Origin: Candidatus Latescibacterota bacterium
Lineage (GTDB): Bacteria > Latescibacterota > UBA2968
NCBI GenBank assembly: GCA_965204745.1
Contig: OZ242010.1
Coordinates: 3,773,389 to 3,837,388 of the forward strand
DNA: 64,000 nucleotides
Direction of reading: 5' to 3'
In this document: positions 19,276 through 54,667 of the stretch, piece after piece
Layout of the letters: the number at the start of each line of letters is the position of its first letter
Numbering within the stretch: position 1 is the stretch's first letter
Position numbers and translations under genes: made by a program
Notes under the pieces: generated by a model
The model's input: only the letters and a program-made list of their open reading frames with translations
Databases searched by the model: none
What the model was told of the DNA's origin: nothing

Positions 19276-19620
19276 TAGGTTGTGTTGACATTTTATTATT
19301 TTCTGACGTTCCACACAGATTAGCAAATGTGTTGCTTGCTCATTTAAGGCGTTTCCTTTGATGGCTTCTCGCTCTGGTTGCTCTGATGGCGTTGCGCGAG
19401 GGGACCTATCCCCCGGCCCCTTTCCTACGAGGAAAGGGGAGTAAAGCTCCTTTGATGGCTTATCTCAAGGGTTGCTCTGATGGCGTGGCGCGAGGGCATA
19501 AAGCGATTAAATATCCCTCATCAATACCCTCGCAAAACCTCTCGCCATTTCCCCTTCCTCGCAGGCACAGGCGTAGCCTACAACGAAGCGTAGCGAGTAA
19601 CGGGGCTAGGGGGTAGGTCC
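19276..19620 (+). repeat. composite repeat: IS-end-like sequence plus a MITE with GGACCTA(T/C)CCCC terminal inverted repeats
   Basis: TAGGTTGTGTTGACATTTTATT...TGTGTTGCTTGCTCATTTAAGGCGTTT recurs at 27781, 33720 (rc) and 55210 (rc). The internal hairpin CCCCTTTCCTACGAGGAAAGGGG recurs at more than 10 sites. Confidence 0.8.
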
Positions 19621-19735
19621 AAAATTTTCTTGACAAGAAACGGCGTGGTACTTTAATTTTTTTCCACCATCGTTATTTGGCGCCCGCAGGCAAAAGCCAT
19701 GCCTGTGCAACTCATTATATTTTCGGAGGTTTCAG

Positions 19736-22700
19736 ATGATTACCACCCTTTTCAGATCGCGCTTGTTGGCCCTGTTCATGCTGGTCGGACTGGTGGCATC
19801 GGGGCCGGCTTTTGCCCAAACCATCATCGACTACGACACCGACGACGACGGCTACATTGAGGTGTCCGGCCACGCCCAACTCAACGCCATTCGCAACGAC
19901 CTCGACGGCGACGGCAATCCCACAGTCGGCGGCTCCAGTGCCTACAACAACGTATTCCCCAACCGCGACGGCAACGCCGCCACGCGCATGGGCTACCCCT
20001 CAGGAAACTGCGTCGGCTACGAACTCACCGCCAACATCAACCTAACCACCTACACCAACTGGGATCCCATCGGCGACAACACCAACAACTACACAGGCGA
20101 CTTCAAGGGCAACGGCTACACTATCGACAACCTGACCATCAGCCGTTCCACCGAATCTTATGTGGGACTATTCGGCGCCTTCAGCTCCACCGCTCGCATC
20201 GAGTCCGTCGGCATAACCAACGCCAACGTTACGGGAAGCGAATTCGCCGGCGCTCTGGTCGGCGGCTCTAACGGAGAAATCATCGCCTGCTGGTCCACCG
20301 GCAGCGTTACGGCAAGAAGGGTCGTTGGCGGACTGGTCGGATAGACTGGCAGCACTATCACCTCAAGCTACTCCCACGCATCCGCCACCGGAACCCAAGC
20401 ATCAACGTCTGATCACGTCGGCGGACTGCTGGGACAAGCCAAGGTGCCAACGTAAGGAACTCCTACTCCACCGGCAGGGTTACCCGCGCCACCGGTGCCA
20501 CTACTACAAACGTCGGCGGGTTGATAGGAAGCGGCAGCTCGACCGACGCTCCCGGTAGTTACTGGGACACCCAAACCAGCGGGCAGGCAACAAGCGCCGG
20601 CAGTGCCACCGCGGTGGGACAAATGACCACCGCGCTCCAAAATCCCACCGGCTACACCGGCATCTACGCCAACTGGAACATCGACCTAGACAACGCCGAC
20701 GGCGACAACAACAGGACAACCGGCGTGGACGACCCCTGGGACTTCGGCGCCACAAACGCATATCCCACGCTGACATACGGACTCACCGACTACGATCTGG
20801 ACAACGACGGCTACATCGAGGTGTCCGGCCACGCCCAACTCAACGCCGTCCGCTACGACCTCAACGGCACTGGGGTCGTAGCCGCTACTGATACCGCGAA
20901 CTACAACGCCGCCTTCCCCCTACGCATGACATCCGCCACAAAGCGCATGGGCTGCCCCAGAAGCGGTTGCACGGGCTATGAACTCACCGCCGATATAGAC
21001 CTCGACACCAACGGCGACGGCAACCACACCGCCGCCGACGCATACTACAACAGCGGCAACGGCTGGGATCCTTTAGGCGGCGACTCCGGCAACCGCAACC
21101 AGTACTCAGGCAATTTCAAAGGCAACGGCTTCACCATAGACAACCTGGTCATCAATAGAACCGGCACCGACGACGTCGGTCTGTTCGGCGCAAATTCCAG
21201 TACATCCACCATCGAGACATTGGGCGTAACCAACGCCAACGTCTCGGCGCGGGAATATGTCGGCATTCTGGTAGGCACCAGTTACGGAGCAATCATCGCC
21301 TGTTACACCACCGGCGCGGTGAGCGCCTCCGTAGCGGATGTCGGCGGGCTGATAGGCTTAATGAACAGATCCGCTACGTCCGTCACCTCTAGCTACTCCA
21401 CCGCGTCCGTCAGCGGAGGCGCCAGTAATGGCGGCGGCCTAGTAGGGCGGGTCGTAAGCGGTAGCGTAACAAACTCATATTCCACCGGCAGCGTCACCAC
21501 CACCGACACCCCAAGGGGCGGGTTAATTGGGCTGAGCAGCAGCGGCATCGTAACCGCAAGCTACTGGGACACCACAACTAGCGGCCGCTCCAACAGCGCA
21601 GCCGGAACGGGCTACGCCACCGCAGACCTCAAGGGCCCCACCGACTACACCGGCATCTACTCCACATGGAACGCCAACATCGACGGACAGCCGGGCAACG
21701 ACGACCCGTGGTACTTCGGTAGCCCCGGATGGTACCCGCTACTGAAGTACGGCGGGCATGACCTCGGAAAGCAGGACTCCGGCGAATACGACTACGATGA
21801 CGACGGCTACATCAACGTCTTCACCCTCGCTCAGCTCAACGCCATCCGCTACGACCTAGATGGCAACGGCGATCCCGCAAGCGGCGCTACCGCCTACAAC
21901 GCCGCCTTCCCCTACCGCGACACCGCCGCCGGTAGCCGAATGGGTTGCCCGTCCGGCACCTGCACGGGCTACGAACTGCTCGCAAGCCTCGACTTCGACG
22001 AAAACGGCGATGGCGACATTACCCAAACCGGCGACCCCACATATTGGAACAGCGGCATGGGCTGGAATCCCATCGGAACTTTCTCCACCCCATACCAAGG
22101 CGATTTCAAGGGCAGCGGCCACACCATCAACAACCTGTTCATCAGCCGTGGCAACGTGAATACCATGCCTGCTACACCACGGGATCGGTCACCGGCACAG
22201 ACCGCGTCGGCGGCATAGTTGGCTATCAAGGCCGAAACGCGGCGGTTATCAATTCCAGCTACTCCACCGCCGCCGTCAGCGGCAACAACTATGTCGGCGG
22301 GGTGTTGGGGCAAAAGTTCGGCAGTGTAACGAACTCATACTCCACCGGCCGAGTCAGCGGGTCCTCAAACGTCGGCGGGCTAATAGGATCCTCTAGTCAA
22401 GGCAGCACGACCAATAGCTACTGGGACACCTCCACCAGCCGCACAACCAGTAGCAGCGGTGGCGGCACGGGTAAGACGACCAGCGAGCTCCAAAGCCCCA
22501 CCACCTACGGTGCCACCGCCAACGACACCTACTACGGCTGGGACGCCGACCTCGACGGACAATCCGGCAACGATGATCCGTGGACCTTTGGCGCGATGAA
22601 TCAGTATCCGGTCTTGAAGTATGCTGGCATGGACACCACCGTGCAATTTCAGATCCAACCCGTGGTCGTGACGTTGGCACTGACGCCCTCGACGATCTCG

Positions 22701-24230
22701 GAAAGCGGCGGGATGAGTACCGTGACCGCGACGCTGGCACACCCGTTGAGCACGGCGACGACGATCACTGTGCGCCCTGTGGCGGGTGCTTACACGGTGG
22801 GGACGGATTCGACGATCACCATCGCGGCCGGGCAAACCGCGAACGCGTCGGACACGGTGGTCATCACAGCGGTGGACAACACCCAAGACGCGCCTAATCG
22901 CGACGTGGACATGTCCGTTGTGGCGGGCAACGCCCAGGCAGTGTTCCTCTCGACTGTGATAACGATCACCGATGATGACGCGCCGCCGATGCTCTTGATC
23001 GATTCGCCGAGTGCGGTTGAGGGCACTGCCTTGACGTTCACCGTTAGATTGAATGCGGTGAGTGGCAAGGAGGTGACGGTGGCGTATGCAGACGCTGGCA
23101 CGGGTAGCGCGACTTCGGGGACGGATTACACCGCGCTTACCGCAGGAACCCTGACCTTCGCGGCGGGCACGACCATGACCAGCCAGACCTTCGCTATTTC
23201 TGTGACCGGCGACACGGATGATGAGCCGAACGAGACCGTGATGGTGACTTTGAGCAACGCGGTCAATGCCACCTTTGATGGCGGGGCTACGAGCCTCACC
23301 GGCACCGGTACGATTATCGACAACGATGGCATGCCTGCGCTGAGTATCGGTTCGCCAAGCGTGATTGAAGGCGCGACCGGCGCGACCCTGACCTTTCGGG
23401 TGTACCTACGCCCAGCGCACACGGCACAAGTGACGGTGGCGTATGCAGACGCTGGCACGGGCACCGCGACTTCGGGGACCGATTACACCGCGCTTACCGC
23501 AGGGACCCTGACCTTCGCGGTAGGCGATACCATCCAGACCATCCCTGTTTCTGTGACCGACGACTCGGATGATGAGCCGAACGAGACCGTGATCGTGACG
23601 CTGAGCAGTGCGACCAATGCGACCATAAGCACAGCGTAAGGCACCGGGACGATTATCGATGACGAAACCCCGAGTGCCAACTTGGATGTGGATGGCGATG
23701 GCCGGGTGAGATTGTTCTCGGATATAATCCTGGTCATTCGATATGTCCTCTTCTTCCGGAACGAGGCCCTCCTCAGAGGGAACGTCATCGAGCCAACTGC
23801 CACGCGCACGACCGCTCAAGAAATTGAACCCTACCTCGACACGTTGGTCAATCAGAACATTCTCGATGTGGATGGCGATGGCGATGTGAGGCTGTTCTCG
23901 GATATAATCCTGGTCATTCGATACGTCCTCTTCTTCCGGAACGAGGCCCTCCTCAGAGGGAACGTCATCGAGCGAAATGCTACGCGCAAGACCGCTCAAG
24001 AAATTGAACCCTACCTCGACACGTTGGTCAATCAGAACATTCTCGATGTGGATGGCGATGGCGATGTGAGGCTGTTCTCGGATATAATCCTGATCATTCG
24101 ATACGTCCTCTTTTTCCGGAACGAGGCCCTCGTCAGAGGGAACGTCATCGAGCAAAATGCTACGCGCACGACCGCTCAAGCCATTGAACCCTACATTCGA
24201 AACCTCTATCCCGACTCCCACTTCCAATGA
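19736..24230 (+). pseudogene. pseudogenised paralog of the giant GLUG/Calx-beta/dockerin-repeat surface protein (signal peptide, 3 GLUG units, 3 Calx-beta, 3 dockerin-like repeats)
   Basis: In-frame TAG at 20342-20344, frameshift near 20445, a deletion/frameshift of about 135 bp near 22150-22200, and in-frame TAA at 23637-23639. The last about 2.1 kb is roughly 95% identical to the reverse complement of 43998-46070. Confidence 0.7.
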
Positions 24231-24421
24231 AAGCCTGTTCCCTGACCGCCACAGATGAAGATGGCGATGGCAATGTGAATTTCGCCGACTTCTTGACCTT
24301 TGCGGATAAGTTCGGCTCGCGGCTCGGACAGGAGCGATATGACGCCCGGTGCGATGGCGATGGTCAAATTGACTCTGCCGATTTCTTCATCTTCGCCGAT
24401 AACTTTGGTTCGACAGGCTGA
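24227..24421 (+). CDS. stand-alone dockerin-like minigene (two Ca-binding repeats), start overlapping the stop of the upstream gene
   Basis: DEDGDGNVNFADFLTFADKFG and DGDGQIDSADFFIFADNFG dockerin type-I-like repeats; ATGA start/stop overlap; paralog at 43801-44001. Confidence 0.6.
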   Translation: MKACSLTATDEDGDGNVNFADFLTFADKFGSRLGQERYDARCDGDGQIDSADFFIFADNFGSTG

Positions 24422-24450
24422 CAAATGCGAAAGACGTGAAAGGGAAAAGT

Positions 24451-24490
24451 AAAGCCCGGGTTCCCAGTGAACTCGGGCTTTACTTTTTGG
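24451..24490 (+). terminator. Rho-independent terminator
   Basis: AAAGCCCGGGTTCCCAGTGAACTCGGGCTTT followed by ACTTTTT. Confidence 0.7.
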
Positions 24491-24499
24491 GAATTGGGT

Positions 24500-24950
24500 A
24501 CCTACCCCCTGGCCCCGTTACTCGCTACGCTTCGTTGTAGGCTACGCCTGTGCCTACGAGGAAGGGGGAATGGCGAGAGGGATTGCGAGGGATTGCGCGA
24601 GCGGTTTTTGGATTTCATGGCGTGATCCATTCGCCCAAAGCCATCAGAATAGCCCTGGATGCAAACCTTTAAGAAAGCCATGCGCTCCCCCTTTCCTGCG
24701 AGGAAGGGGGAATGGCGAGCGGTTTTGCGAGGGGAATGGCGAGCGGTTTTTGGGGTTCATGGCGTGATCCATTCGCCCAAAGCCATCAGAATAGCCCTGG
24801 ATGTAAACCTTTAAGAAAGCCATGCGCTCCCCCTTTCCTCGCAGGAAAGGGGGCCGGGAGGATAGGTCTATGGCGGTGGGGATGTGTGGGGTAATCCGCG
24901 TAATCCGCGTAATCCGCGTAATCCGTTTAATCCGCGATTCAGACACGGCC
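24500..24950 (+). repeat. cluster of MITE-like elements plus a (GTAATCCGC)4 microsatellite
   Basis: Same TIR family and CCCCTTTCCT hairpins; two near-identical approximately 130-bp subrepeats. Confidence 0.75.
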
Positions 24951-43287: not shown

Positions 43288-43720
43288 GACCTATCCCCCG
43301 GCCCCTTTCCTACGAGGAAAGGGGAGTAGAGTTCCTTTGATGGCTTATATCTATGCTTGTTCTGATGGCTTTACACGAATGGATCGCGCCATAGAAACCC
43401 AATCTCGCACAAATCCCTCGCAAGACCCATCGCCATTCCCCCTTCCTTCCTCGTAGGAAGGGGGCTAGGGGGTAGGTCCCACCTCGCAAAACCTATCCCC
43501 CCGGCCCCCGTTATTCGCTTCGCTCATTGTAGGCTACGCCTGTGCCTACAAGGAAAGGGGGAGCGCATGGCTTTCTGAAAGGTTTATATCCCCTGGCTGT
43601 TTTGATGGCTTTGAGCGAATGGATCAATGAACCCCAAAAAACCTCTCGCCATTCCCTCGGAAAACCTCTCGCCATTCCCCCCTTCCTCGCAGGAAGGGGG
43701 GTTAGGGGGGTAGGTCCCAA
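43288..43720 (+). repeat. two tandem MITE copies
   Basis: GACCTATCCCCCGGCCCC...GGGGGCTAGGGGGTAGGTCC, then a second copy ending GGGGGGTAGGTCCC. Confidence 0.8.
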
Positions 43721-43766
43721 AAAGTAACGCCCGAGTTCACTGTGAACCCGGGCGTTACTTTTTTTC
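43718..43766 (-). terminator. bidirectional Rho-independent terminator (paralog of 24451-24490)
   Basis: AAAAAGTAACGCCCGAGTTCACTGTGAACCCGGGCGTTACTTTTTTT. Confidence 0.7.
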
Positions 43767-43800: not shown

Positions 43801-44001
43801 TCAACCTGATGAGCCAAAGTCGGCGGTGAAGATGAGGAAATCGTCGAATCCAATTTGACCATCGCCATTGAGATCGCACCGGGGGTCATATCGCTCCTGA
43901 CCGAGGCGCGAGCCGAACTTGCTGGCAAAGGTCAAGAAGTCGGCGAAATTCACATCGCCATCGCCATCGCTGTCTGTGGCGGTCAGAGAACAGGCTTTCA
44001 T
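43801..44001 (-). CDS. stand-alone dockerin-like minigene, start overlapping the stop of the giant gene
   Basis: DSDGDGDVNFADFLTFASKFG and DLNGDGQIGFDDFLIFTADFG; ATGA overlap with the upstream stop. Confidence 0.6.
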   Translation of the reverse strand: MKACSLTATDSDGDGDVNFADFLTFASKFGSRLGQERYDPRCDLNGDGQIGFDDFLIFTADFGSSG

Positions 44002-47000
44002 TGGAAGTGGGAGGCGGGATAGAGGCTTCGGATGTAGGGTTCAATGGCTTGAGCGGTCGTGCGCGTAGCATTTTGCTCGATGACGTTCCCTCTGAGGAGG
44101 GCCTCGTTCCGGAAGAAGAGGACGTATCGAATGATCAGGATTATATCCGAGAACAGCCTCACATCGCCATCGCCATCCACATCGAGAATGTTCTGATTGA
44201 CCAACGTGTCGAGGTAGGGTTCAATTTCTTGAGCGGTCGTGCGCGTAGCAGTTGGCTCGATGACGTTCCCTCTGAGGAGGGCCTCGTTCCGGAAGAAGAG
44301 GACATATCGAATGACCAGGATTATATCCGAGAACAATCTCACCCGGCCATCGCCATCCACATCCAAGTTGGCACTCGATGTTTCGTCATCGATAATCGTC
44401 CCGGTGCCTTGCGCCGTGCTTATGGTCGCATTGGTCGCACTGCTCAACTCGACGATCACGGTCTCGTTCTGCTCATCATCCGAGTCGTCGGTCACAGAAA
44501 CAGGGATGGTCTGGATGGTATCGCCCATCGCGAAGGTCAGGGTCCCTGCGGTGAGCGCGGTATAATCCGTCCCCGAAGTCGCGGTGCCCGTGCCCGCGTC
44601 TGCATACCCCACCGTCACCTGTGCCGTGTGCGCCGGGCGTAGGTACACCTGAAAGGTCAGGGTCGCGCCGGTCGCGCCTTCAATCACGCTTGGCGAACCG
44701 ATACTCAGCGCAGGCATGCCATCGTCATCGATAATCGTACCGGTGCCGGTGAGGCTCGTAGCCCCGCCATCAAAGGTGGCATTGACCGCGTTGCTCAAAG
44801 TCACCTCCACGGTCTCGTTCTGCTCATCATCCCCGTCGTCGCTCACAGAAACAGCGAAGGTCTGGCTGGTCGTGCCCGCCGCAAAGGTCAGGGTTCCTGC
44901 GGTGAGCGCGGTGTAATCGGTCCCCGAAGTCGCGCTGCCCGTGCCCGCGTCTGCATACGCCACCGTCACCTCCTTGCCGCTCGCCGCATGCAATCTAACG
45001 GTGAACGTCAGGGCAGTGCCCTCAACCGCACTCGGCGAACTGATCGAGAGCCTCGGCGGCGCGTCATCATCTGTGATCGTTATCACAGTCGAGAGGAACA
45101 CTGCCTGGGCGTTGTCTGCCACAACGGTCACGGTCACGTCGCGATTAGGCGCGTCTTGGGTATTGTCCACCGCTGTAATGACCACCGTATCCGACGCGTT
45201 CGCCGTACTCCCTGCCGCGATGGTGATCGTCGAATCCATCCCCACCGTGTAAGCATCCGCCACCGGGCGCACCTTGATCGTTGTCGCCGCACTCAACGGG
45301 TGTGCCAGCGTCGCGGTCACGGTGCTCATCCCCCCGCTTTCCGAGATCGTCGAGGGCGTCAGTGCCAACGTCACTATCGCGGGTTGGAGCTGAAATTGCA
45401 CGGTGGTGTCCATGCCGGCATACTTCAAGACCGGATACTGATTCATCGCGCCAAAGGTCCACGGATCATCGTTGCCCGCCTGTCCGTCGAGGTTGGCGTC
45501 CCAGCCGTAGTAGGTGTCGCTGGGGGTGGCACCGTAGGTGGTGGGGCTCTGGAGCTCACTGGTGGTCTTGCCCGTGCCGCCGCCCCCGCTGGTGGCACGG
45601 TCGCTGGTGGAGGTGTCCCAGTAGCTATTGGTCGTGCTGCCTTGACTAGAGGATCCTATTAGCCCGCCGACGTTTGAGGACCCGCTGACTCGGCCGATGG
45701 AGTATGAGTTCGTTACACTGCCGAACTTTTGCCCCAACACCCCGCCGACATGGTTGCTACCGCTGACGTCGGCGGTGGAGTAGCTGGAATTGATAACCGC
45801 CGCGTTTCGGCCTTGATAGCCAACTATGCCGCCGACGCGGTCTGTGCCGGTGACCGATCCCGTGGTGTAGCAGGCGACGATTGTGCCGTTATTGCTGCCG
45901 ACCAGAATGCCTGTGTAGAGGGCTCCGGTGACATCGGCGTTGGTTACGCCCACGGTTTCTATTTGAACTCCGGTGTCAACATCGCCGAACAGCCCGATGC
46001 TATTCACGTTGCCACGGTTGATGAACAGGTTGTTGATGGTGTGGCCGTTGCCCTTGAAATCGCCTTGGTATTGGGTGGAGAAAGTTCCGATGGGATTCCA
46101 GCCCATGCCGCTGTTCCAATATGTGGGGTCGCCGGTTTGGGTAATGTCGCCATCGCCGTTTTCGTCGAAGTCAAGGCTTGCGAAAAGTTCGTAGCCGGTG
46201 CATGTCCCGGAAGGACAACCCATACGGACGTTGCTGGTGGTGTCTCGGTTGGGAAAGGCGGCGTTGTAGGTCATGGTATCACTAGCGGCGACGACCCCAT
46301 CGCCGTTGAGATCCCAGCGAATGGCATTGAGTTGCGCCAGCGTCGTAATGTCGATGAGGCCATCGCCATCGCTGTCGTAATCGATCCTTTGGGGCGTGCC
46401 CATGACCTCGTCCGAGGGATCGCTATCCATCCCACCTGCCAAGGTGGCAATGACGCGCACGGTGTAGATCGTGCCAATCGTCAGGTTCTCTATCGTGTAG
46501 GTCGTGGTGTTTCCTCCAGAGACCGTCGCCTGGCGATCAGAGGTGTTGTAGCTTTGTCCGCCGGACTTCCACTGCACCTTGTACCCCCTCGCGCCGGTTG
46601 CCTCGGTCCAACGCACGATGAGTTGAAGCGGCCCCGGCGTCACGCGCACATTGGTGGGCTTGGCTGGCGCCGTGGTCACCATGACTGCGTCCGAAGGGGT
46701 GCTGTTGGCGGCCGTTGTGGTGTGCGTGGCGATCACTCGAATCGTGTAGGTCGTCTCTGCGGTCAGCCCAGAAATATCGTAGGTCGTGGTGCTCCCGTCA
46801 GCGATTGTGGCTTGCCCGCGCAAGGCGGACACCAGATCGGAGGTGGGATAAGTCTCTGACCCGGATTTCCACTGCACCTTATACCCGATGGCATCGTCCA
46901 CCGCATTCCAAGTCACGGTCAGCGTGTCCGCCGTCGCACTCACCTCCACACCCGTCGGGCTACCCAGCAGGGGAACGTCGGTCACTTCATCCGAGGGGTC

Positions 47001-49574
47001 ACTGTCGGCTACATTGGCACGCGTGGCGATCACTCGAATCGCGTAGGTCGTCCCTGCGGTCAGCCCAGAAATATCGTAGGTCGTGGTGCTCCCGTTAGCG
47101 ATTGTGGCTTGCCCGCGCGTGGCGGACGCCAGATCGGAGGTGGGATAAGTCTCTGACCCGGATTTCCACTGCACCTTATACCCGGTTGCATCGTCCACTG
47201 CGTTCCAAGTCACGGTCAGCGTGTCCGCCGTCGCACTCACCTCCACACCCGTCGGGCTACCCAGCAGGGGAACGCCGGTCTGCTCTGCCGAGGGGTCACT
47301 GTCGGCTACATTGGCACGCGTGGCGATCACTCGAATCGCGTAGGTCGTCCCTGCGGTCAGCCCAGAAATATCGTAGGTCGTGGTGCTCCCGCCTGCGATT
47401 GTGGCTTGCCCGTGCGTGGTGGACTGCTCATCAGAGGTGGGATAAGTCTCTGACCCGGATTTCCACTGCACCTTATAGCCATCCGCGTCATCCACCGCGT
47501 CCCATGACACGCGCAACGTGTCCACCTGCGCGAGCACGCTAACGTTTTTAGGCGGCAACAGCCTTAGCGCGCCAGTCGCCTCGTTGGAGGCTTCACTGTC
47601 ATCGTAATTCGCACGGGTGGCGATCACCCGAACCGCGTAGGTCGTTCTGGCAGTCAGATCGGGAATCTTGTAATTCGTCGTACTGCCCACTGTGGCCTGT
47701 CCATGCGTCGCGGCATGCCCATCAGCAGTGGGGTAATTTTCTTCGCCAGACTTCCACTGCACCTTGTAACCCGTCGCACCGGTCACAGCGTCCCAATTCA
47801 CCGATAGGGTATCCATCAAGGCCATCACACGCACATTCATCGGCATGCCTAGCGTCTCGTCGTCGTCCACCGTCACCGTCACGCTGGCGATAGACAGACC
47901 AGTCGTATAGACCCCTGAATCGGTGGTAACGCGGTGACTCACAAGCGCGGTGTCGTCCAGGCCATCGGCATCATGCCCTGCGGTTACGGTCACCGTCTGC
48001 GCCGTGTTCCAATTCGAATTTGTGAAGGTCAGCGTCGAAGAGGACACGGTGACATCGGTGTTATTGCTCATGACGCCAATCACGACGTCGTTAGCGGGTT
48101 GGGCATCCAATACGACCGTATAGGTGCCTCTGTTGGCGTTGGTGGTGCTGGGATCCTCCTTTAATGCCAGATTGCTTTCGCTGACGGTCACGCCCAGAGT
48201 CGGCGTCAGCGTTATTGTGCCCGTGGTCAGATCGCCACTTTTATCATGAGCCGATGCCCACACCTTCACTGCCAAGGTCTGGTCAGTGTCGAAGTCGCCG
48301 GTGAAGGCCAGACGCAGAAACACCGCATCGGAATTGCCCCCAGATACAAAGGAGATGGACAAATTCGGGATGGTCGTCACCAATCCGAAGTGAGAAGCAT
48401 TCAAATAAGAACCATGGCCGAAGCGGGTGTGGTGCAGCTGCAGATCGATCCTCGCACCGTTCAGATTGGCTTCGGTTAACTGGGTGGGGGTAGTTGAACG
48501 GATCGTGACCCCTATCACGTTGATGTTGAATAACAGACTGGCGCGATCGCTATTGGCCATGTTGGCGTCCGAGTCCGTCGCATAGAGGGTGACGGAGAAG
48601 GTGCCCCCCACCCCATTGTCAGGCGTGCCGCAGATGGTACGCGCCGCCGTGCCGGGACAAGTCCCACTGCCATCGGCATCAAAGGTCAAACCCGCAGGCA
48701 AGCCGATGGCTTCATAGGTTAAGGCACCATCGCCGCCAGTCGCCGCAGGCATTTGCCACGCCAAAGTGTCCACGCCCGCAGTAATGGTCGTATCAGGCAC
48801 TGAGTTATTACCGAAAGACGGAACCTCATCGCTCGACAATGTCGCCGTGTAGGTCGTGTTAAGGCTATTGTCCGTGACGATGACCGAAACGGTTATGGCT
48901 CCGCTACTCAGGGAACTGATGGTGTGTGAGCTACCACTGGCGACCGTGGTCGTGTCTCCACTATTGACGCTGACGCCGATGGTGCCCGAACTGGCCGTGG
49001 GTGTAACCTTCAGGCCGTTGGCGGTGGAGGGGATACTCCCGGTGTAAGTGAGCGTGGACGAGGCGAAGGTCGGCATCAACGTGACCGACGAGGAAGTGGG
49101 AATGGGTATCCAGTCTGCAAAGGCGGTAATTTCAACCTCCCCCTCCCAAACGTGCCACATGACCCCGCCATGGTCGATCTCGGTTTGTTCAAGCGTGATC
49201 GATGTGGGATGAGTGAGGAAACCGACTTGACGACATCCCGCCCTCCCGCCAGGGCTAACATCTCGTCGAGTATCCTTATCGGCACAAACATAGTGATAAA
49301 AATTCTGAGTCGAACCATCAGAAGCGGGGCCAGTAATCCTTATCGTTTGCGAAGTCGTTTGCGGCAAGAGGGTAGTGAAGCCAAACGAGAACGAGTAGGA
49401 GCTACTGCTATATCTGGGTGAAGCCGGCGGATCAACTGAAATGGTAGCAACCAGTGCCAGGCCGGACAGAGTCGGTGCAGATTGCGCCTTAGCGGACGGA
49501 ACAAAGCCGATCATTGTAACCAGCCAACCGAAAAGCACGATAAAAACTGGATAGATTCGGGAGAACATCGTCAT
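43998..49574 (-). CDS. giant secreted surface protein/adhesin: signal peptide, 6 FN3 domains, GLUG-repeat domain, 3 Calx-beta domains, 2 dockerin-like repeats (1858 aa)
   Basis: FN3-like units (GYKVQWKSG...YAIRVIATRAN), VGG(L/I)(V/I)G GLUG repeats, and Calx-beta ...TVAYADAGTGSATSGTDYTA...DDE.NET units. Confidence 0.85.
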   Translation of the reverse strand: MTMFSRIYPVFIVLFGWLVTMIGFVPSAKAQSAPTLSGLALVATISVDPPASPRYSSSSYSFSFGFTTLLPQTTSQTIRITGPASDGSTQNFYHYVCADKDTRRDVSPGGRAGCRQVGFLTHPTSITLEQTEIDHGGVMWHVWEGEVEITAFADWIPIPTSSSVTLMPTFASSTLTYTGSIPSTANGLKVTPTASSGTIGVSVNSGDTTTVASGSSHTISSLSSGAITVSVIVTDNSLNTTYTATLSSDEVPSFGNNSVPDTTITAGVDTLAWQMPAATGGDGALTYEAIGLPAGLTFDADGSGTCPGTAARTICGTPDNGVGGTFSVTLYATDSDANMANSDRASLLFNINVIGVTIRSTTPTQLTEANLNGARIDLQLHHTRFGHGSYLNASHFGLVTTIPNLSISFVSGGNSDAVFLRLAFTGDFDTDQTLAVKVWASAHDKSGDLTTGTITLTPTLGVTVSESNLALKEDPSTTNANRGTYTVVLDAQPANDVVIGVMSNNTDVTVSSSTLTFTNSNWNTAQTVTVTAGHDADGLDDTALVSHRVTTDSGVYTTGLSIASVTVTVDDDETLGMPMNVRVMALMDTLSVNWDAVTGATGYKVQWKSGEENYPTADGHAATHGQATVGSTTNYKIPDLTARTTYAVRVIATRANYDDSEASNEATGALRLLPPKNVSVLAQVDTLRVSWDAVDDADGYKVQWKSGSETYPTSDEQSTTHGQATIAGGSTTTYDISGLTAGTTYAIRVIATRANVADSDPSAEQTGVPLLGSPTGVEVSATADTLTVTWNAVDDATGYKVQWKSGSETYPTSDLASATRGQATIANGSTTTYDISGLTAGTTYAIRVIATRANVADSDPSDEVTDVPLLGSPTGVEVSATADTLTVTWNAVDDAIGYKVQWKSGSETYPTSDLVSALRGQATIADGSTTTYDISGLTAETTYTIRVIATHTTTAANSTPSDAVMVTTAPAKPTNVRVTPGPLQLIVRWTEATGARGYKVQWKSGGQSYNTSDRQATVSGGNTTTYTIENLTIGTIYTVRVIATLAGGMDSDPSDEVMGTPQRIDYDSDGDGLIDITTLAQLNAIRWDLNGDGVVAASDTMTYNAAFPNRDTTSNVRMGCPSGTCTGYELFASLDFDENGDGDITQTGDPTYWNSGMGWNPIGTFSTQYQGDFKGNGHTINNLFINRGNVNSIGLFGDVDTGVQIETVGVTNADVTGALYTGILVGSNNGTIVACYTTGSVTGTDRVGGIVGYQGRNAAVINSSYSTADVSGSNHVGGVLGQKFGSVTNSYSIGRVSGSSNVGGLIGSSSQGSTTNSYWDTSTSDRATSGGGGTGKTTSELQSPTTYGATPSDTYYGWDANLDGQAGNDDPWTFGAMNQYPVLKYAGMDTTVQFQLQPAIVTLALTPSTISESGGMSTVTATLAHPLSAATTIKVRPVADAYTVGMDSTITIAAGSTANASDTVVITAVDNTQDAPNRDVTVTVVADNAQAVFLSTVITITDDDAPPRLSISSPSAVEGTALTFTVRLHAASGKEVTVAYADAGTGSATSGTDYTALTAGTLTFAAGTTSQTFAVSVSDDGDDEQNETVEVTLSNAVNATFDGGATSLTGTGTIIDDDGMPALSIGSPSVIEGATGATLTFQVYLRPAHTAQVTVGYADAGTGTATSGTDYTALTAGTLTFAMGDTIQTIPVSVTDDSDDEQNETVIVELSSATNATISTAQGTGTIIDDETSSANLDVDGDGRVRLFSDIILVIRYVLFFRNEALLRGNVIEPTATRTTAQEIEPYLDTLVNQNILDVDGDGDVRLFSDIILIIRYVLFFRNEALLRGNVIEQNATRTTAQAIEPYIRSLYPASHFQ
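46430..47900 (-). repeat. approximately 300-bp tandem FN3-encoding repeats, three copies more than 95% identical
   Basis: GCGTGGCGATCACTCGAATCGCGTAGGTCGTCCCTGCGGTCAGCCCAGAAATATCGTAGGTCGTGGTGCTCCCG recurs at about 46728, 47025 and 47325. Confidence 0.85.
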
Positions 49575-49929: not shown

Positions 49930-50440
49930 GGCGGCGGGGGATGCGAGGGGGACCTACCCCCTGGCCCCCTTCCTAAGAGGAAGGGGGAATGGCGGTGGGT
50001 TTTGCGAGGGATTGTGTGTAAGGGTTTTTGGATTTTCATGGCGTGCTCCATTCGCTCAAAGCCATCAAAACAGCCCTGGATGCAAACCTTTAAGAAAGCC
50101 ATGCGCTCCCCCTTTCCTCGTAGGAAAGGGGGCCGGGGGGATAGGTCCTGCGAGGAAGGGGGAATGGCGATGGGTCTTCCGAGGGGAATGGCGAGAGGTT
50201 TTTTGGGGTTCATGGCATTATCCATTCGCGCAAAGCCATCAGAATAGCCAGGGATACAAATCTTCAAGAAAACCATGCGCTCCCCCTTTCCTCGCAGGAA
50301 AGGGGGCCGGGGGGATAGGGCTATGGCGGTGGGGCGTGCGAAGGACATAGCAGAGGGGAAGGACGGAGCGGCGGTAGGGATGTGTGGGGTAATCCGCGCA
50401 ATCCCCTAATCCGTTTAATCCGCGATTCAGACACGGCGGG
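49930..50440 (+). repeat. two tandem MITE copies plus a GTAATCCGC-like microsatellite
   Basis: Same TIR and hairpin family as 24500-24950. Confidence 0.8.
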
Positions 50441-50469: not shown

Positions 50470-52680
50470 TCATTCCCCGATGCAATCCACAAAAATGGGA
50501 CTGCTCCAAGCCATTTCCATATCGGTTTGCACCACGCGGACATAGTATGGATTGATGCCCGGCTCGGCGTCTTTGTCGATAAAATCGAATGACACCTCGC
50601 CCGCGGCTCGGGGTTCGGGCGCGAAATCCACGGTGATGCGGCGGTTCAATGCGCCGAGTTCTACGCTTATCGGGCCGCGTTCCAAGTCGCGCGGGCCAAT
50701 GTGAAAGCCCACCTTTTCCGCCGGCGCGTAGGACATGCGCCGCGGCGGCTCGATGCCTTGATCTCCGAACAGGGGGCCGGTGATTACGGACGTGTTGACC
50801 GCCAATTCGATATCCATATCCCCGTCCCCCGGCAGGTCCAAAATGATGCCGCTGCGATACCCGCACGTCACCGAATACCAGCGCAGGCCGCGATCCGCAA
50901 CATCAAAAACGCGCGAGCGCGGGCTGTCAAACCGAATCCGCTCAACCCCTTTGATGGCGCGGCCCGACACCTGTAATTTTCCCTCCCAGACCACGCCGGA
51001 ATAACTGCTCTTGCGACTCGCGCCCTCCCACATCACGCGCACGCGATGGCGGTCTTTTTTTTCGCGAATCGGATGCCTGTAAATGCGGGCCAACCCGCGG
51101 TACAGATCGACCGATTCAAACGGCGCCGTGCCGGCCACAAAAGCCGAGATGCGCGGCGCGTTTCGCGTGGTGAACTCCTCGCCCATGCCGTGGCCCTCGC
51201 AAGCGGTACGCAACAAAATCCGCGCGCCCGTCGTCGCGTAAATCCGCCGCGCCTTGTACGCGGCAAGGATGCTTTCGATGGTCAATTCCGGCGCGTACAC
51301 CGCGGCCAACCCGGCCTTGGCATATCGCCTGTGCTGAAACCCGGGCGTGTCGCTGCCCGGCCGCCCATTGTGGCTGTCGCTCCCACCGAAAAATCCCATG
51401 CGATAATCGCGCTCAAACGTCTCTTGCAAAATCCACTCAAACGTGCCGTGATCCGAGGTGACTTCCACTGCGGGCTCGAGGTGGGGATCGTGGTATTGCA
51501 AATCCGAATGCTCCCCGCCCACATGCGCGGTGATCAGGGTGTCCGTGCCGCGATACGCTTCGTACACCGCTGTGATGTGCGTCAAATCCGTATCCGCATC
51601 CGATTTGTCGGCTAGGCCCTCGTGCCCGGACCGGCGGATGGGTTGGTCGTGTCTGCGAAAATACACGTTGTGATGCCCGCCGCGCGTGGTTTGTGCGGAC
51701 CACTCAAAGCCCGGCAGGGCCACAAACCGGCCGGGCTGGTGATAGGCGCGCTCGGCTTCTCGTTGCAACGCCCAATCCCGCGTGCTCAAGACGTGGTCAT
51801 TGCGCTGGTACCCCGCAAAGTGGATGCCCGCCACATCGCGTGCGTACTCAAAAAAATCGGGGATTTTCTCTGCCATCGCCACCTGCCCGCCGTGCGAATC
51901 CCCCCAGTAGAGCATCATGGCTGGCGCGGTCTGGCGGCAATCTATCGGGTTGCTCTGCGCGGTCAACGCGCCATCCGTAGCTCGGAGGCGACAAATCCCC
52001 TCGGCCTGCGCGATGCACCCCTCGACCCAGCAGATCCCCCCAGTTGCGCGGTCAAAGGTCACGCTTGCCGGCACGCGCACCTCACCGCCAGTGACCGCGA
52101 CCTCCCCGCGATACGCGATAGCGGGATTGCCCCAGGCGTCTTCCGCCTTGACCTGAATGCGAAACGGCTCGCCCACTGCCGCGAGAGATGGCGCGTTGAC
52201 CGTCAGCGATGCGGCCTCGCCGCCGATGATTCGCAACGCAGGCGGATCCGGCAGGGTTATGACCTCGCCATCGCCCGCATCCACGCCCACCCAAAAGTAG
52301 TGCCGCGCTTCGGCAAAGGTCTGCGCCCGAAATCCCGGGCCGCCCGCACTCGTATCGCCATACACCACAGAGACCCGCTCGCCTGGGGCCAAGGCGCGTC
52401 CGTTCACGGTCAGCAAAAGCGACATCATGCTCTGCACCAAAACCCCGACTCGCGCCTCTTTGGGCGCGTCCACCGTCAGATAATCCGCGCCTGCGGGGTC
52501 ATCCACCTGCGGGGTTGCGCGGTCTGAATCCGCATCCGTATAAATCCGGATCGTCCCGCCCGGGGCAACGCCTTTTTCGCCTGCGGTGTACGTCACTGTC
52601 CATGTGCCATAAGACCCGGCCACCACGTCTGTCGTGGGATGCAGGGTCGCACGGCCGTACAATTTCGTTCTGTCTGACAT
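50470..52680 (-). CDS. DUF3604 domain protein
   Basis: MLYWGDSHGGQ and PGFEWS signature segments; RBS GGAGGA 5 nt upstream of the chosen ATG. Confidence 0.75.
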   Translation of the reverse strand: MSDRTKLYGRATLHPTTDVVAGSYGTWTVTYTAGEKGVAPGGTIRIYTDADSDRATPQVDDPAGADYLTVDAPKEARVGVLVQSMMSLLLTVNGRALAPGERVSVVYGDTSAGGPGFRAQTFAEARHYFWVGVDAGDGEVITLPDPPALRIIGGEAASLTVNAPSLAAVGEPFRIQVKAEDAWGNPAIAYRGEVAVTGGEVRVPASVTFDRATGGICWVEGCIAQAEGICRLRATDGALTAQSNPIDCRQTAPAMMLYWGDSHGGQVAMAEKIPDFFEYARDVAGIHFAGYQRNDHVLSTRDWALQREAERAYHQPGRFVALPGFEWSAQTTRGGHHNVYFRRHDQPIRRSGHEGLADKSDADTDLTHITAVYEAYRGTDTLITAHVGGEHSDLQYHDPHLEPAVEVTSDHGTFEWILQETFERDYRMGFFGGSDSHNGRPGSDTPGFQHRRYAKAGLAAVYAPELTIESILAAYKARRIYATTGARILLRTACEGHGMGEEFTTRNAPRISAFVAGTAPFESVDLYRGLARIYRHPIREKKDRHRVRVMWEGASRKSSYSGVVWEGKLQVSGRAIKGVERIRFDSPRSRVFDVADRGLRWYSVTCGYRSGIILDLPGDGDMDIELAVNTSVITGPLFGDQGIEPPRRMSYAPAEKVGFHIGPRDLERGPISVELGALNRRITVDFAPEPRAAGEVSFDFIDKDAEPGINPYYVRVVQTDMEMAWSSPIFVDCIGE

Positions 52681-52693
52681 CTCATCCTCCGGA

Positions 52694-54667
52694 TTACCAA
52701 CCATGCACAAAATGCCCGGCATCTGGAAACCAGATCGCGTCGATGACGCTCGACAGGGAAATGCCGAACAAATACCCGACTATCGCGCCGTACCAAAACG
52801 GCAGGGATCGCCTGTACAGATGCACCCCGCCGAATCGCAGCACCGCGACCTTGACCAGCCACACGATCAACAGGCAAAACGCATATCGCCCGGGCGGGAA
52901 CGCAATGGCGACCGGGTGAAAGGGCCACCACGAGAATTGCGAGCGCAAATAGGTCAAGACCCCGGCTTCGGCAAACCCGAACAACCACACGCCGAGTTTT
53001 TGCGTGTCGAACACCGACAACTTGCTACCCTCGATATAGGCCACTCGGGAAACCAGCGCGTCCATGGGCCATGACACCAACAGGCCATTCAGCCCGCCCT
53101 CGTCATAGCAGCGAAACAAATAAAACCCGCCCCCACTCGCAAACCCGATCAAATAGGCCAGCGGCACCATCCCCCAGAGCCATGGATGCCGGCGCAGCGA
53201 ACGCCCGAACATGCGAAAAATATGCGGCACCGCGGCCAAACAAGTCGTGCGGCTCGAATCGCCCAAGAACACATTGCGGTTGAACAAGATCAGCATCGAC
53301 TGCGACCCCGGCGAGAGTTTGGACGTGCCGACGAGCGAGTGGATGAGGGACCCGCCTTTGCCCCCTGCCGGATTGAGAAAGGTAAAGCCGGTCGTTGCCG
53401 CGTACTTTGCAATCCCGAAATAGCACATGAACATCAGGCCGAGTTGCGCGACCACGGCCCAAAATGCCACGCCTGCGGACGACATCCATCCCCCGATGCC
53501 CACGGTTGCCATGCCCAGGCCCACCCAAGCCGTGCGGTACGTCACGGGCGCGCCATCGTCCAGGGCGCGGGTTCGGCTCAATGCTTTTTGCACGGTCTCT
53601 TTGAGGTGGTGGCGCGCGACCCACACGGACCAGATCACCAGACAGGCCAGCGCGCCGTGCATCTCGAGCATGGCGATTTCGCCGGCCTTGGCCGGTTGGT
53701 CCGGCAGGCCCACGCTGAAGCCCGTGCGGTTGAGCAGGCCCACTTTGAAGATGTTGACCACGTTGTAAAACCAAACGCTGAACAAAATATCGACCGGGCA
53801 CAAATAGGCCAAGCCCATGATCAGGGGTTGCACGCGCAAATAATACGCCGGGAAGTACCGGCCCAAATCCACGGCTTTGGTGCGATATTGGTCGAAAACC
53901 GTGATGCGCGGCAAATTCAGTTGAAAATACCCGATGATGTTCCAGCATATTATGCCGGCCACGCACCAGAACCCGATCCAGAAAATTTTGTCCCGAAACA
54001 CCGCGGGCACGCGGCCTTCATCCGCGCCTTCGAGCAGGGCCACCGGGAACTCGGACATGGGAAAGACCAACCGCTCTTTTTCCTGCCATTGCTTGAAGAA
54101 GAGCACGCTGCCAAAAAAGCCGGCCATCACCGCGCTGATACAACCGACAAACCACCCAAAAAAGGGCCGCACCCACAGCAACCACGGCACCGGTTCGCCG
54201 CGATGCCGCCCGGTGTACACTTGCCGCACATCCGCGCGGTTCGCATCCAAAAAGAGCCAGTCCGGCAAAAAGGGAATGACCACGTCTCGCAAGCGGTTTT
54301 CCGGGGAGGCGTAAAACTCGGGCGCGGGAATCAGGCTGACCGCGTAAAACCCCCATCCCACTGCGGGCAAGTTGCCCACGATCCACATCATCGAGAAAAT
54401 GGTGAGCAATTCCATGCGGGACAGGGCAAACCGGGGCGCGAAGTGGTTCAGCCCAATGTTGATGCCCACCCACATCACAAAGGGAATCAGCGCGGCCACG
54501 GGCAAATAACTCTTGACCAAGTTCCCGGCAAAATAGGTCATATACCACGTGGCGATGACAATGGTCGCCAACCCCAATAAGATGGATCGCAACGTGATGG
54601 CATCCGCCGCGGGTTCGGGTTGTATGTCGGATGATAGAGCCATGAAAATGATAGCCGAAAAGGGCAC
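52694..54667 (-). CDS. large polytopic membrane protein of unknown function (about 14 TM helices), translationally adjacent to the DUF3604 gene
   Basis: Highly hydrophobic 657-aa ORF; 14-nt gap to the DUF3604 start. Confidence 0.7.
   Translation of the reverse strand: MPFSAIIFMALSSDIQPEPAADAITLRSILLGLATIVIATWYMTYFAGNLVKSYLPVAALIPFVMWVGINIGLNHFAPRFALSRMELLTIFSMMWIVGNLPAVGWGFYAVSLIPAPEFYASPENRLRDVVIPFLPDWLFLDANRADVRQVYTGRHRGEPVPWLLWVRPFFGWFVGCISAVMAGFFGSVLFFKQWQEKERLVFPMSEFPVALLEGADEGRVPAVFRDKIFWIGFWCVAGIICWNIIGYFQLNLPRITVFDQYRTKAVDLGRYFPAYYLRVQPLIMGLAYLCPVDILFSVWFYNVVNIFKVGLLNRTGFSVGLPDQPAKAGEIAMLEMHGALACLVIWSVWVARHHLKETVQKALSRTRALDDGAPVTYRTAWVGLGMATVGIGGWMSSAGVAFWAVVAQLGLMFMCYFGIAKYAATTGFTFLNPAGGKGGSLIHSLVGTSKLSPGSQSMLILFNRNVFLGDSSRTTCLAAVPHIFRMFGRSLRRHPWLWGMVPLAYLIGFASGGGFYLFRCYDEGGLNGLLVSWPMDALVSRVAYIEGSKLSVFDTQKLGVWLFGFAEAGVLTYLRSQFSWWPFHPVAIAFPPGRYAFCLLIVWLVKVAVLRFGGVHLYRRSLPFWYGAIVGYLFGISLSSVIDAIWFPDAGHFVHGW

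What the first reader, a model, noticed from the sequence alone, without database searches (positions are those of the whole stretch)
43801..44001. Stand-alone 64-66-aa dockerin module, start overlapping the stop of each giant adhesin copy
Both copies are followed by an ATGA overlap and a tiny ORF that is essentially one complete two-repeat dockerin domain (D-x-D-G-D-G-x-V-N-x-x-D-F-L ... twice) with no catalytic or carrier moiety. Free dockerins are highly unusual. It is conserved in both paralogs, including the overlap, which argues it is real. It could be the product of translational coupling, a programmed recoding event that extends the adhesin, or a separate Ca-dependent anchoring or competition peptide.
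Basis: partly seen in the sequence, partly recalled or inferred. Interest (0 to 1): 0.6.

Follow-up and report, generated by a model that had tools for sequence, protein, structure and literature searches.

The report
Stranded dockerin tail behind giant adhesins
The tiny dockerin gene after each giant adhesin is real sequence. It is most likely the cut-off 3' end of an older adhesin tail, left behind when a different C-terminal module carrying its own stop codon was spliced in front of it, rather than a purpose-built free dockerin.

Summary
A 66-aa ORF (43801-44001, minus strand) and a 64-aa paralog (24227-24421, plus strand) each start with an ATGA overlap on the stop of a giant adhesin. Each encodes a two-loop dockerin and each is followed by a strong hairpin terminator.

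The unit adhesin C-terminus + minigene + terminator is a multicopy 3' module: I verified six loci by DNA on one 5.28 Mb chromosome. Conservation in two paralogs therefore says little.

In related Latescibacterota, homologous adhesins carry this same dockerin (71-77% identity) fused in frame behind He_PIG repeats. Here a Calx-beta plus C-terminal-repeat cassette ends at its family's natural C-terminus and sits in front of the tail, out of frame.

- He_PIG remnants survive at the minigene's 5' end.
- L023 shows a longer stranded tail with no overlap.
- Several copies are frameshifted, half-deleted or truncated.
- Only 5 of 40 sequence variants keep both canonical Ca loops.
- The product has no signal peptide and no Shine-Dalgarno sequence.
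- There is no slippery site or stimulatory RNA structure for recoding.

Against a pure relic: pN/pS is 0.43, no higher than in the fused copies (0.37). Low-level coupled translation cannot be excluded.

The parts
43801..44001 (-). Minigene copy 1: a 66-aa leaderless two-loop dockerin ORF. Its first residues (KACSLTATD) are a remnant of the last strand of a He_PIG repeat.
   Evidence: He_PIG remnant
43998..44001 (-). ATGA start/stop overlap. The minigene is in the -1 frame relative to the adhesin.
43998..49574 (-). Giant adhesin copy 1 (1858 aa). Domain order: Sec signal peptide, cadherin-like/He_PIG-like region, 5 FN3, GLUG region, Calx-beta repeats, and a C-terminal double 'LDVDGDG...ATRTT...YI' repeat module.
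44002..44363 (-). C-terminal repeat module (CTD) of the adhesin, with two roughly 60-aa dockerin-like repeats. Distant homologs of this module end at the same place.
43719..43763 (-). Intrinsic-terminator-like hairpin (21-bp stem flanked by A and U runs) that closes the adhesin + minigene transcript.
44159..44177 (-). 19-nt exact direct repeat GATGGCGATGGCGATGTGA in the last CTD repeat, read as D-G-D-G-D-V in the adhesin frame.
43950..43968 (-). Second copy of the 19-nt direct repeat, in loop 1 of the minigene and read in the minigene frame. Deleting the 209 nt from one copy to the other would fuse adhesin and dockerin in frame.
24227..24421 (+). Minigene copy 2 (64 aa). Its second Ca loop lacks positions 1-2. 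ATGA overlap at 24227-24230.
19736..24230 (+). Adhesin copy 2, a pseudogene. It has frameshifts near 20344-20521 and about 22167, and a CAA->TAA stop at 23637-23639.
   Evidence: the orthologous locus L016 is also broken
24444..24488 (+). Terminator-like hairpin after copy 2.
43337..43685 (.). Array of intergenic repeat elements downstream of unit 1, inverted relative to the array at 49949-50333.
49949..50333 (.). Array of the same intergenic repeat elements upstream of unit 1.
19527..19626 (.). Upstream arm of the 100-nt, 92% complementary inverted repeat that brackets unit 2.
24492..24591 (.). Downstream arm of the inverted repeat that brackets unit 2.

Best explanation
The minigene is the stranded 3' end of an older adhesin tail.

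The ancestral adhesins of this lineage (probably Latescibacterota) ended in He_PIG Ig-like repeats followed by a C-terminal dockerin. In the species of this window, a cassette of Calx-beta domains plus a double 'LDVDGDG...ATRTT...YI' C-terminal module was recombined into the He_PIG region. That cassette brings its own natural stop codon. The junction is out of frame, so the last few He_PIG codons (…SLTATD) and the whole dockerin now lie between the new stop and the old terminator.

The A before the cassette's TGA creates an ATG that happens to be in the dockerin frame, so an intact 64-66-codon ORF is called.

The unit (adhesin 3' end + tail + terminator, bracketed by inverted intergenic repeats) was then copied and homogenised among many adhesin loci. 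That is why both window copies look alike.

Shown: homology, fused relatives, the natural end of the cassette, decayed copies, and the absence of export and recoding signals.

Inferred: the product, if reinitiation makes any, is a leaderless cytoplasmic peptide with no dedicated function.
For: 1. Fused relatives. P0083 (1380 aa) and P0086 (1347 aa) have the same signal peptide-GLUG-FN3 front end as these adhesins, then He_PIG repeats, then this dockerin in one frame (71-75% identity to the minigene). L003-L007 in MAG OZ251458.1 show the same arrangement.

2. Intermediate form. In L023 the 1857-aa adhesin aligns with P0083 from its residue 1 (the two HSPs together reach its residue 1334) and then switches to Calx-beta + CTD + stop. 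A 201-aa ORF starts 37 nt downstream (no overlap) and matches the last 205 residues of P0083/P0086 at 74%.

3. He_PIG remnants. A 109-aa variant carries an extra repeat unit (L011-L013). P0038, P0040 and P0058 are chimeras.

4. Natural stop. Distant homologs of the CTD module (P0069, P0071, P0073, P0074, P0076) end 5-10 residues after the last 'YI', so the adhesin stop is the family's normal C-terminus.

5. Decay.
- L016 is frameshifted.
- L021 is deleted to 33 aa between the two loop-coding repeats.
- L022 is truncated.
- P0043, P0046, P0047 and P0048 are frameshifted.
- Only 5 of 40 MKAC-type sequences keep both canonical 12-residue loops, whereas all five fused copies, L003-L007, keep both.

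6. No signal peptide. No Shine-Dalgarno sequence (the upstream stretch is CCTCCCACTTCCA), although the adhesins themselves have GGAGG-type sites.

7. The same xxA-TGA stop in L023 gives only M-R-H-stop in the -1 frame. The ATG therefore belongs to the cassette end, and being in frame with the dockerin is roughly a 1-in-3 outcome.
Against: - Most copies are still intact ORFs.
- pN/pS among 8 paralogous minigenes is 0.43 in the minigene frame (bootstrap 95% CI 0.23-0.77), against 0.86 and 1.05 in the other two frames. That is no higher than the 0.37 seen among the fused copies.
- Changes private to the stranded set are 17 non-synonymous to 11 synonymous, against a neutral expectation of 77% non-synonymous (p = 0.036).
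- A bona fide gene in the same window (ThiI, 24964-26130) is also started by an ATGA overlap without a Shine-Dalgarno sequence. The signals present therefore do not exclude translation.
- Much of the variation is shared with the fused copies of another genome. The low pN/pS could be inherited or imported by gene conversion. This was not resolved.
Confidence: 0.55

Rival explanations
1. The minigene is a real, translationally coupled gene. Ribosomes terminating at the adhesin TGA reinitiate at the overlapping ATG and make a free 64-66-aa dockerin or EF-hand-pair peptide with a function of its own, for example Ca-dependent binding, competition, or a role in adhesin assembly.
For: - The ATGA overlap is present in every copy examined.
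- pN/pS is 0.43, below 1, and only in this frame.
- Most copies are intact.
- An undoubted gene pair in the window uses the same overlap without a Shine-Dalgarno sequence.
- The ORF lies inside the transcript, upstream of the terminator.
- Short dockerin-only proteins exist elsewhere.
Against: - There is no signal peptide, so the product would stay in the low-Ca cytoplasm while every related dockerin sits on a secreted protein.
- The junction is equally conserved where the ORF is destroyed (L021, L022, L016).
- 35 of 40 variants have a non-canonical Ca loop or are disrupted.
- The overlap is absent in the L023 arrangement.
- No cohesin was found among the window's neighbouring genes that I scanned.
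Confidence: 0.27
2. The tail is a silent cassette for recombinational tail switching. A deletion between the loop-coding direct repeats of the adhesin's CTD and of the minigene would replace the CTD with the dockerin in frame, changing how the adhesin is anchored.
For: - A 19-nt exact direct repeat occurs in the same codon register in both modules. The 209-nt deletion between them restores the frame.
- Recombination at these GATGGC repeats demonstrably happens: the L021 loop1-loop2 deletion, the chimeras P0040 and P0058, and 6-nt indels in many copies.
- The units are bracketed by inverted repeats.
Against: - No fused CTD-loop/dockerin product was found in 23 loci, the window and 259 proteins.
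- The repeat follows automatically from both modules encoding DGDGDV with the same codons.
- A deletion is irreversible, so this is not a switch in the usual sense.
Confidence: 0.08
3. Programmed -1 ribosomal frameshifting, or another recoding event, near the adhesin stop appends the dockerin to a fraction of adhesin molecules.
For: The dockerin is in the -1 frame, and a fusion would make functional sense for a secreted adhesin.
Against: - The -1 frame is open for only 13 codons before the ATG.
- There is no X XXY YYZ heptamer in the last 400 nt of any copy.
- There is no stable or unusual RNA structure at the junction (z = +0.4 and +1.3).
- No Rfam family matches.
Confidence: 0.04
4. The split is a sequencing or assembly artefact: a 1-nt error splits what is really one adhesin-dockerin ORF.
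For: Some related contigs are low-coverage long-read assemblies (names ending in 4x-6x).
Against: - The identical junction occurs in two places in the window, at six loci of a closed 5.28 Mb chromosome, and in independent samples.
- The adhesin's last residues are homologous to the natural C-terminus of the CTD family.
Confidence: 0.01

Closest known systems
Type I dockerin modules (Pfam PF00404), for example the Pseudobacteroides cellulosolvens Cel48 dockerin, PDB 2y3n chain B
   Same: Two tandem segments, each a 12-residue EF-hand-like Ca loop followed by a helix ending in 'FG'. The family profile matches 2y3n_B at E = 3.7e-10 across both segments. Pfam Dockerin_1 scores above cut-off for copy 1. 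All of the top, non-significant Foldseek hits of the low-confidence model are dockerins.
   Different: It is not attached to any carrier and has no signal peptide. Most paralogs have a shortened or altered second loop. No cohesin partner was identified.
C-terminal dockerins of He_PIG-repeat adhesins in related Latescibacterota (L003-L007 in OZ251458.1; P0083, P0086)
   Same: The same dockerin subfamily at 71-77% identity, including the linker GSRxGQERYDxRC. The adhesin front end is the same (signal peptide, GLUG, FN3).
   Different: There the dockerin is in frame at the end of a 1072-1688-aa protein. Here it is separated from the adhesin by a stop codon and a frame change.
ATGA-overlapped, translationally coupled bacterial gene pairs
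   Same: A 4-nt start/stop overlap inside one transcript. The same window has a genuine example, SpoIIE-type phosphatase followed by ThiI at 26127-26130.
   Different: The downstream 'gene' is a domain fragment with decayed paralogs. The overlap is retained even where the ORF is destroyed.
Small EF-hand-pair Ca-binding proteins (calbindin D9k / S100 type; calmodulin lobes)
   Same: About 65 aa with two Ca loops. Pfam EF-hand_1 scores 28 bits against a cut-off of 25.4. Calmodulins match at about E = 1e-6.
   Different: The match to dockerins is about four orders of magnitude better. The EF-hand pair models are below cut-off. There is no helix before loop 1, so these are F-hand rather than EF-hand motifs.

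Membership tests
Dockerin type I (PF00404) | Profile match at or above Pfam's gathering score | tested here: met
   Copy 1 scores 24.4 bits against a cut-off of 22.9. Copy 2 scores only 18.2 bits, below cut-off.
Dockerin type I (PF00404) | Two tandem Ca-binding loops (D-x-[DN]-x-[DN]-G-x-[VIL]-x-x-x-[DE]), each followed by a helix | tested here: met
   Copy 1 has both loops. Copy 2 lacks loop-2 positions 1-2. Only 5 of 40 family variants keep both. The predicted helices at 19-27 and 52-62 come from a low-confidence model.
Dockerin type I (PF00404) | Sequence relationship to a solved dockerin | tested here: met
   2y3n_B at E = 3.7e-10, covering both segments.
Dockerin type I (PF00404) | Borne on a secreted protein (signal peptide or carrier) so that it can meet a cohesin outside the cell | tested here: not met
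   The N-terminus MKACSLTATDSDGD has no hydrophobic segment. Relatives are C-terminal on secreted adhesins.
Dockerin type I (PF00404) | Binds a cohesin partner | not testable with these tools
   No cohesin was found among the 20 window proteins scanned. The whole genome could not be scanned.
Translationally coupled overlapping gene | Start codon overlapping the upstream stop within one transcript | tested here: met
   ATGA in all 15 copies with DNA. The terminator lies downstream.
Translationally coupled overlapping gene | Ribosome-binding site in the upstream gene's end | tested here: not met
   The upstream 25 nt are pyrimidine-rich with no GGAG/GAGG. The adhesin genes themselves have such sites. 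ThiI in the same window also lacks one.
Translationally coupled overlapping gene | Purifying selection on the downstream ORF | tested here: inconclusive
   pN/pS is 0.43 (CI 0.23-0.77). However, much of the variation is shared with the fused copies, and decayed copies exist.
Programmed -1 ribosomal frameshift | Slippery heptamer X XXY YYZ within the region where both frames are open | tested here: not met
   None in the last 400 nt of 7 copies. The -1 frame is open for only 13 codons.
Programmed -1 ribosomal frameshift | Stimulatory downstream RNA structure | tested here: not met
   Folding z-scores are +0.42 and +1.29. No Rfam family reaches threshold.
Gene remnant (stranded 3' tail after domain-cassette insertion) | Homologs in which the segment is part of a longer ORF | tested here: met
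   L003-L007, P0083, P0086.
Gene remnant (stranded 3' tail after domain-cassette insertion) | Leftover sequence of the former upstream domain at its 5' edge | tested here: met
   SLTATD corresponds to the end of a He_PIG repeat. The 109-aa and 201-aa variants carry 1 to 2.5 repeats, with Pfam He_PIG on P0059, P0060 and P0064.
Gene remnant (stranded 3' tail after domain-cassette insertion) | Disrupted copies among paralogs | tested here: met
   L016, L021, L022, P0043, P0046, P0047, P0048.
Gene remnant (stranded 3' tail after domain-cassette insertion) | Neutral substitution pattern | tested here: not met
   pN/pS is 0.43, similar to the fused copies at 0.37. This may reflect inherited or converted variation.

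The most novel reading that the evidence does not exclude
The stranded dockerins are kept as usable parts, in one of two ways. (a) Each adhesin mRNA also yields a leaderless mini-dockerin by termination-reinitiation, and that peptide acts on adhesin assembly or anchoring. (b) The tail serves as a silent cassette: a deletion between the 19-nt loop-coding direct repeats (44159-44177 and 43950-43968) swaps the adhesin's C-terminal anchor for a dockerin in frame. With a dozen or more such loci, the cell could then diversify its surface.
Probability: 0.15. Interest if true: 0.65.

Novelty: new member of a known kind. Interest (0 to 1): 0.3.

Why it matters
It shows how a call of 'novel free dockerin minigene' can arise from modular adhesin evolution. 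A C-terminal cassette swap leaves the old anchoring domain as an intact-looking ORF, and that ORF is then copied across many loci.

For annotation, these 62-68-aa ORFs should be flagged as probable domain remnants rather than new small proteins.

For biology, the loci document very active recombination at Ca-loop-coding GATGGC repeats in a large adhesin family of an uncultured lineage. They also document a change of surface anchoring, from a dockerin to a 'DVDGDG...ATRTT' repeat module.

If the peptide is translated after all, it would be an unusual leaderless dockerin made together with each adhesin.

Tried and rejected
- **JGI metagenome scan.** A DNA scan for the junction sequence found nothing. 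The family appears confined to a few ENA/NCBI assemblies.
- **Long proteins missed.** The search for homologous proteins never returned long proteins (all hits were 345 aa or shorter). It could not show whether the window's own species still has fused He_PIG-dockerin adhesins. The fused forms came from the genome-contig scan and the representative search instead.
- **Structure prediction.** AlphaFold2 on the 19-sequence alignment gave only pLDDT 58.7. The Foldseek hits were all dockerins but none was significant (best E = 0.12). They are used only as weak support.
- **Rfam and folding.** Rfam gave only sub-threshold noise on the terminator hairpin. Folding around the junction showed nothing unusual.
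- **'Ancestral in-frame fusion broken by a 1-nt indel.'** Rejected, because distant CTD homologs end at the same point.
- **Codon-position bias.** Variable sites by codon position (12/14/18) show no clear third-position excess. I therefore relied on NG86 (Nei-Gojobori) with frame controls and bootstrap, and I consider the result ambiguous.
- **Literature.** Searches for Latescibacteria + dockerin and for sponge symbiont + cohesin/dockerin gave nothing relevant. Peer et al. 2009 on non-cellulosomal dockerins is cited from my own knowledge only; I did not open or read any of the papers listed.
- **Source annotations.** The listing of cluster members returned no names or accessions.

Full report
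**Observation**

The flagged ORF lies on the minus strand at 43801..44001 and encodes 66 aa. Its ATG overlaps by 4 nt (ATGA) the TGA of a 1858-aa ORF at 43998..49574. That large ORF contains a Sec-type signal peptide, a cadherin-like region, five FN3 domains, a GLUG region, Calx-beta domains and a C-terminal pair of roughly 60-aa 'LDVDGDG...ATRTT...YI' repeats.

A second copy of the small ORF lies at 24227..24421 (+). It is 64 aa and 79% identical, and it overlaps in the same way the end of a second adhesin copy. That adhesin (19736..24230) is a pseudogene, with two frameshifts and a CAA->TAA stop at 23637-23639.

The small protein is a dockerin:
- Pfam Dockerin_1 scores 24.4 bits against a cut-off of 22.9 for copy 1, and 18.2 bits for copy 2.
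- The family profile hits the solved dockerin 2y3n_B at E = 3.7e-10, against about 1e-6 for calmodulins.

Both copies are followed by a long hairpin plus a U-run. The small ORF is therefore part of the adhesin transcript.

**A multicopy 3' module**

The big protein database holds 48 clusters of this sequence. Nearly all are 62-68 aa and start MKACSLTATD. At least 11 clusters occur on a 5.48 Mb record and several on a 5.28 Mb chromosome.

I retrieved DNA for six distinct loci on the 5.28 Mb chromosome and for several loci from other assemblies. In every case a giant protein is followed by the same 4-nt overlap, the minigene and the hairpin. Where the giant ORF is intact it is 1423-2432 aa.

The near-identical stretch begins about 390 nt before the ATG. 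It runs through the minigene and terminator into a downstream repeat element, and it is attached to adhesins with different front parts. Agreement between the two window copies is therefore expected from duplication or gene conversion. It is not independent evidence of function.

**Where the dockerin comes from**

The genome collection gave five loci in one Latescibacterota MAG (OZ251458.1). There the same dockerin (75-77% identical) is the in-frame C-terminus of 1072-1688-aa proteins, directly after He_PIG-type Ig repeats.

The exhaustive representative search gave 8457 hits. Two of its strongest hits are P0083 (1380 aa) and P0086 (1347 aa). Their domain order is signal peptide, GLUG modules, FN3, five He_PIG repeats and this dockerin. 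Their front parts are homologous to the window adhesin and to the L023 adhesin.

Locus L023 is an intermediate form. Its 1857-aa adhesin aligns with P0083 from its residue 1 (the two HSPs together reach its residue 1334) and then continues with Calx-beta + CTD + stop. A 201-aa ORF starts 37 nt downstream and matches the last 205 residues of P0083/P0086 at 74%.

The minigene's own first residues (…[CY]SLTATD) correspond to the end of a He_PIG repeat (…TYTLTATD). Variants with one extra repeat exist (109 aa, L011-L013), as do chimeras (P0038, P0040, P0058).

Distant homologs of the CTD repeat module end 5-10 residues after the last 'YI'. The adhesin's stop is therefore that module's natural end, not a mutation inside a former fusion.

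Together these results indicate that a Calx-beta/CTD cassette was recombined into the He_PIG region, out of frame, and stranded the dockerin-coding tail in front of the old terminator.

**Is the stranded tail still used?**

Evidence against use:
- The product has no signal peptide. It would stay in the cytoplasm, whereas all related dockerins are on secreted proteins.
- There is no Shine-Dalgarno sequence, although the adhesins have one.
- The junction, including ATGA, is just as conserved where the ORF is ruined. L021 is deleted to 33 aa between the two loop-coding repeats. L022 is truncated. L016 is frameshifted. P0043, P0046, P0047 and P0048 are frameshifted.
- Only 5 of 40 MKAC-type variants, copy 1 among them, retain both canonical 12-residue Ca loops. 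About half lack positions 1-2 of loop 2. Others have V->A at loop position 8, or F->C and F->S changes in the last helix. All five fused copies, L003-L007, are canonical.
- In L023 the same xxA-TGA end gives only M-R-H-stop in the -1 frame. The ATG therefore comes with the cassette, and its being in frame with the dockerin is about a 1-in-3 accident.

Evidence for use:
- Most copies are intact.
- pN/pS among eight paralogs is 0.43 (bootstrap 0.23-0.77) in this frame, against 0.86 and 1.05 in the other frames. That is no higher than the 0.37 among the fused copies.
- Changes private to the stranded set are 17 non-synonymous to 11 synonymous (p = 0.036 against neutrality).
- A genuine gene in the window, ThiI, starts with the same SD-less ATGA overlap.

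Many polymorphisms are shared with the fused copies of another genome, and the variation is mosaic. The low ratio may therefore be inherited or imported by gene conversion. I could not resolve this point.

**Recoding**

The dockerin is in the -1 frame. That frame is open for only 13 codons before the ATG. No X XXY YYZ heptamer occurs in the last 400 nt of any copy. The junction RNA is not structured (z = +0.4 and +1.3). No Rfam family matches. Recoding is very unlikely.

An assembly artefact is excluded, because the same junction recurs in independent assemblies and at many loci.

**A more speculative reading**

The last CTD repeat and loop 1 of the minigene share a 19-nt exact direct repeat in the same codon register. 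Deleting the 209 nt from one copy to the other would fuse adhesin and dockerin in frame. Recombination at these GATGGC repeats clearly occurs (L021, P0040, P0058, and many 6-nt indels). No such fusion was seen in the sequences at hand, and the repeat follows from both modules encoding DGDGDV with the same codons.

**Comparison with known families and verdict**

The sequence is a member of the dockerin family by profile and motif. It fails the contextual feature of that family, which is being carried on a secreted protein.

It resembles a translationally coupled gene in layout only.

The best-supported description is a stranded domain remnant in a recombining, multicopy adhesin family of a probable Latescibacterota bacterium. 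The taxon is inferred from the closest genome-collection matches.

- Relic: confidence about 0.55.
- Functional coupled mini-dockerin: about 0.27.
- Silent cassette: about 0.08.
- Recoding: about 0.04.
- Artefact: about 0.01.

Interest is modest (0.3). It is a clean example of how a cassette swap creates a 'new small gene' call, with a residual chance of something more unusual.

Noticed in passing
window 19527-19626 / 24492-24591 and 43337-43685 / 49949-50333; also L010, L011, L012, L016: Each adhesin + minigene unit is bracketed by inverted copies of an intergenic repeat family. The motif GGAAGGGGGAATGGCGAGAGG occurs 6 times in 64 kb, only in the four flanks. The 100-nt arms around unit 2 are 92% complementary. 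In other loci the element lies upstream in '-' and downstream in '+' orientation and nowhere else in 14-16 kb. It may drive duplication or recombination of the adhesin cassette.
   Followed up: partly
window 19736-24230 (+): The second adhesin copy is a pseudogene, with frameshifts near 20344-20521 and about 22167 and a CAA->TAA nonsense codon at 23637-23639. The orthologous locus in a 5.28 Mb genome (L016) is also fragmented, and its minigene is frameshifted.
   Followed up: yes
window 44002-44363 (-) and 23682-24230 (+): The adhesin C-terminal 'LDVDGDG...RY..F...ATRTT...YI' repeat of about 60 aa varies in copy number, with 2 copies in unit 1 and 3 in unit 2. It belongs to a widespread C-terminal double-repeat module seen in unrelated marine metagenome proteins (P0069-P0076). 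At least three diverged subtypes occur in this adhesin family (window type, the P0054 type at about 60% identity, and the L023 type).
   Followed up: partly
window 26127-26130 (-): ThiI (24964-26130) starts with an ATGA overlap on the stop of a SpoIIE-type phosphatase gene (26127-27701) and has no Shine-Dalgarno sequence. This is a genuine coupled pair and served as an internal comparison.
   Followed up: partly
window 15178-16260 (+): An IS110-family transposase (DEDD_Tnp_IS110 + Transposase_20) lies about 3.5 kb upstream of the broken adhesin copy. Several other adhesin loci (L010, L018, L020) also have IS elements next to them.
   Followed up: no
L019 11866-14195 (+): About 4.7 kb downstream of the adhesin unit at this locus lies a 915-aa gene (cut by the locus end). 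It has faint EF-hand/Dockerin_1 hits and HYDIN/ASH-type Ig domains. Other dockerin-like proteins therefore exist in the same 5.28 Mb genome.
   Followed up: no
window 50470-54667 (-): Immediately upstream of adhesin unit 1 lie a DUF3604 protein (750 aa) and a DUF6785/DUF6784 membrane protein (657 aa) whose ORFs overlap by 29 nt. A DUF6785 gene also follows the adhesin unit in L021.
   Followed up: no
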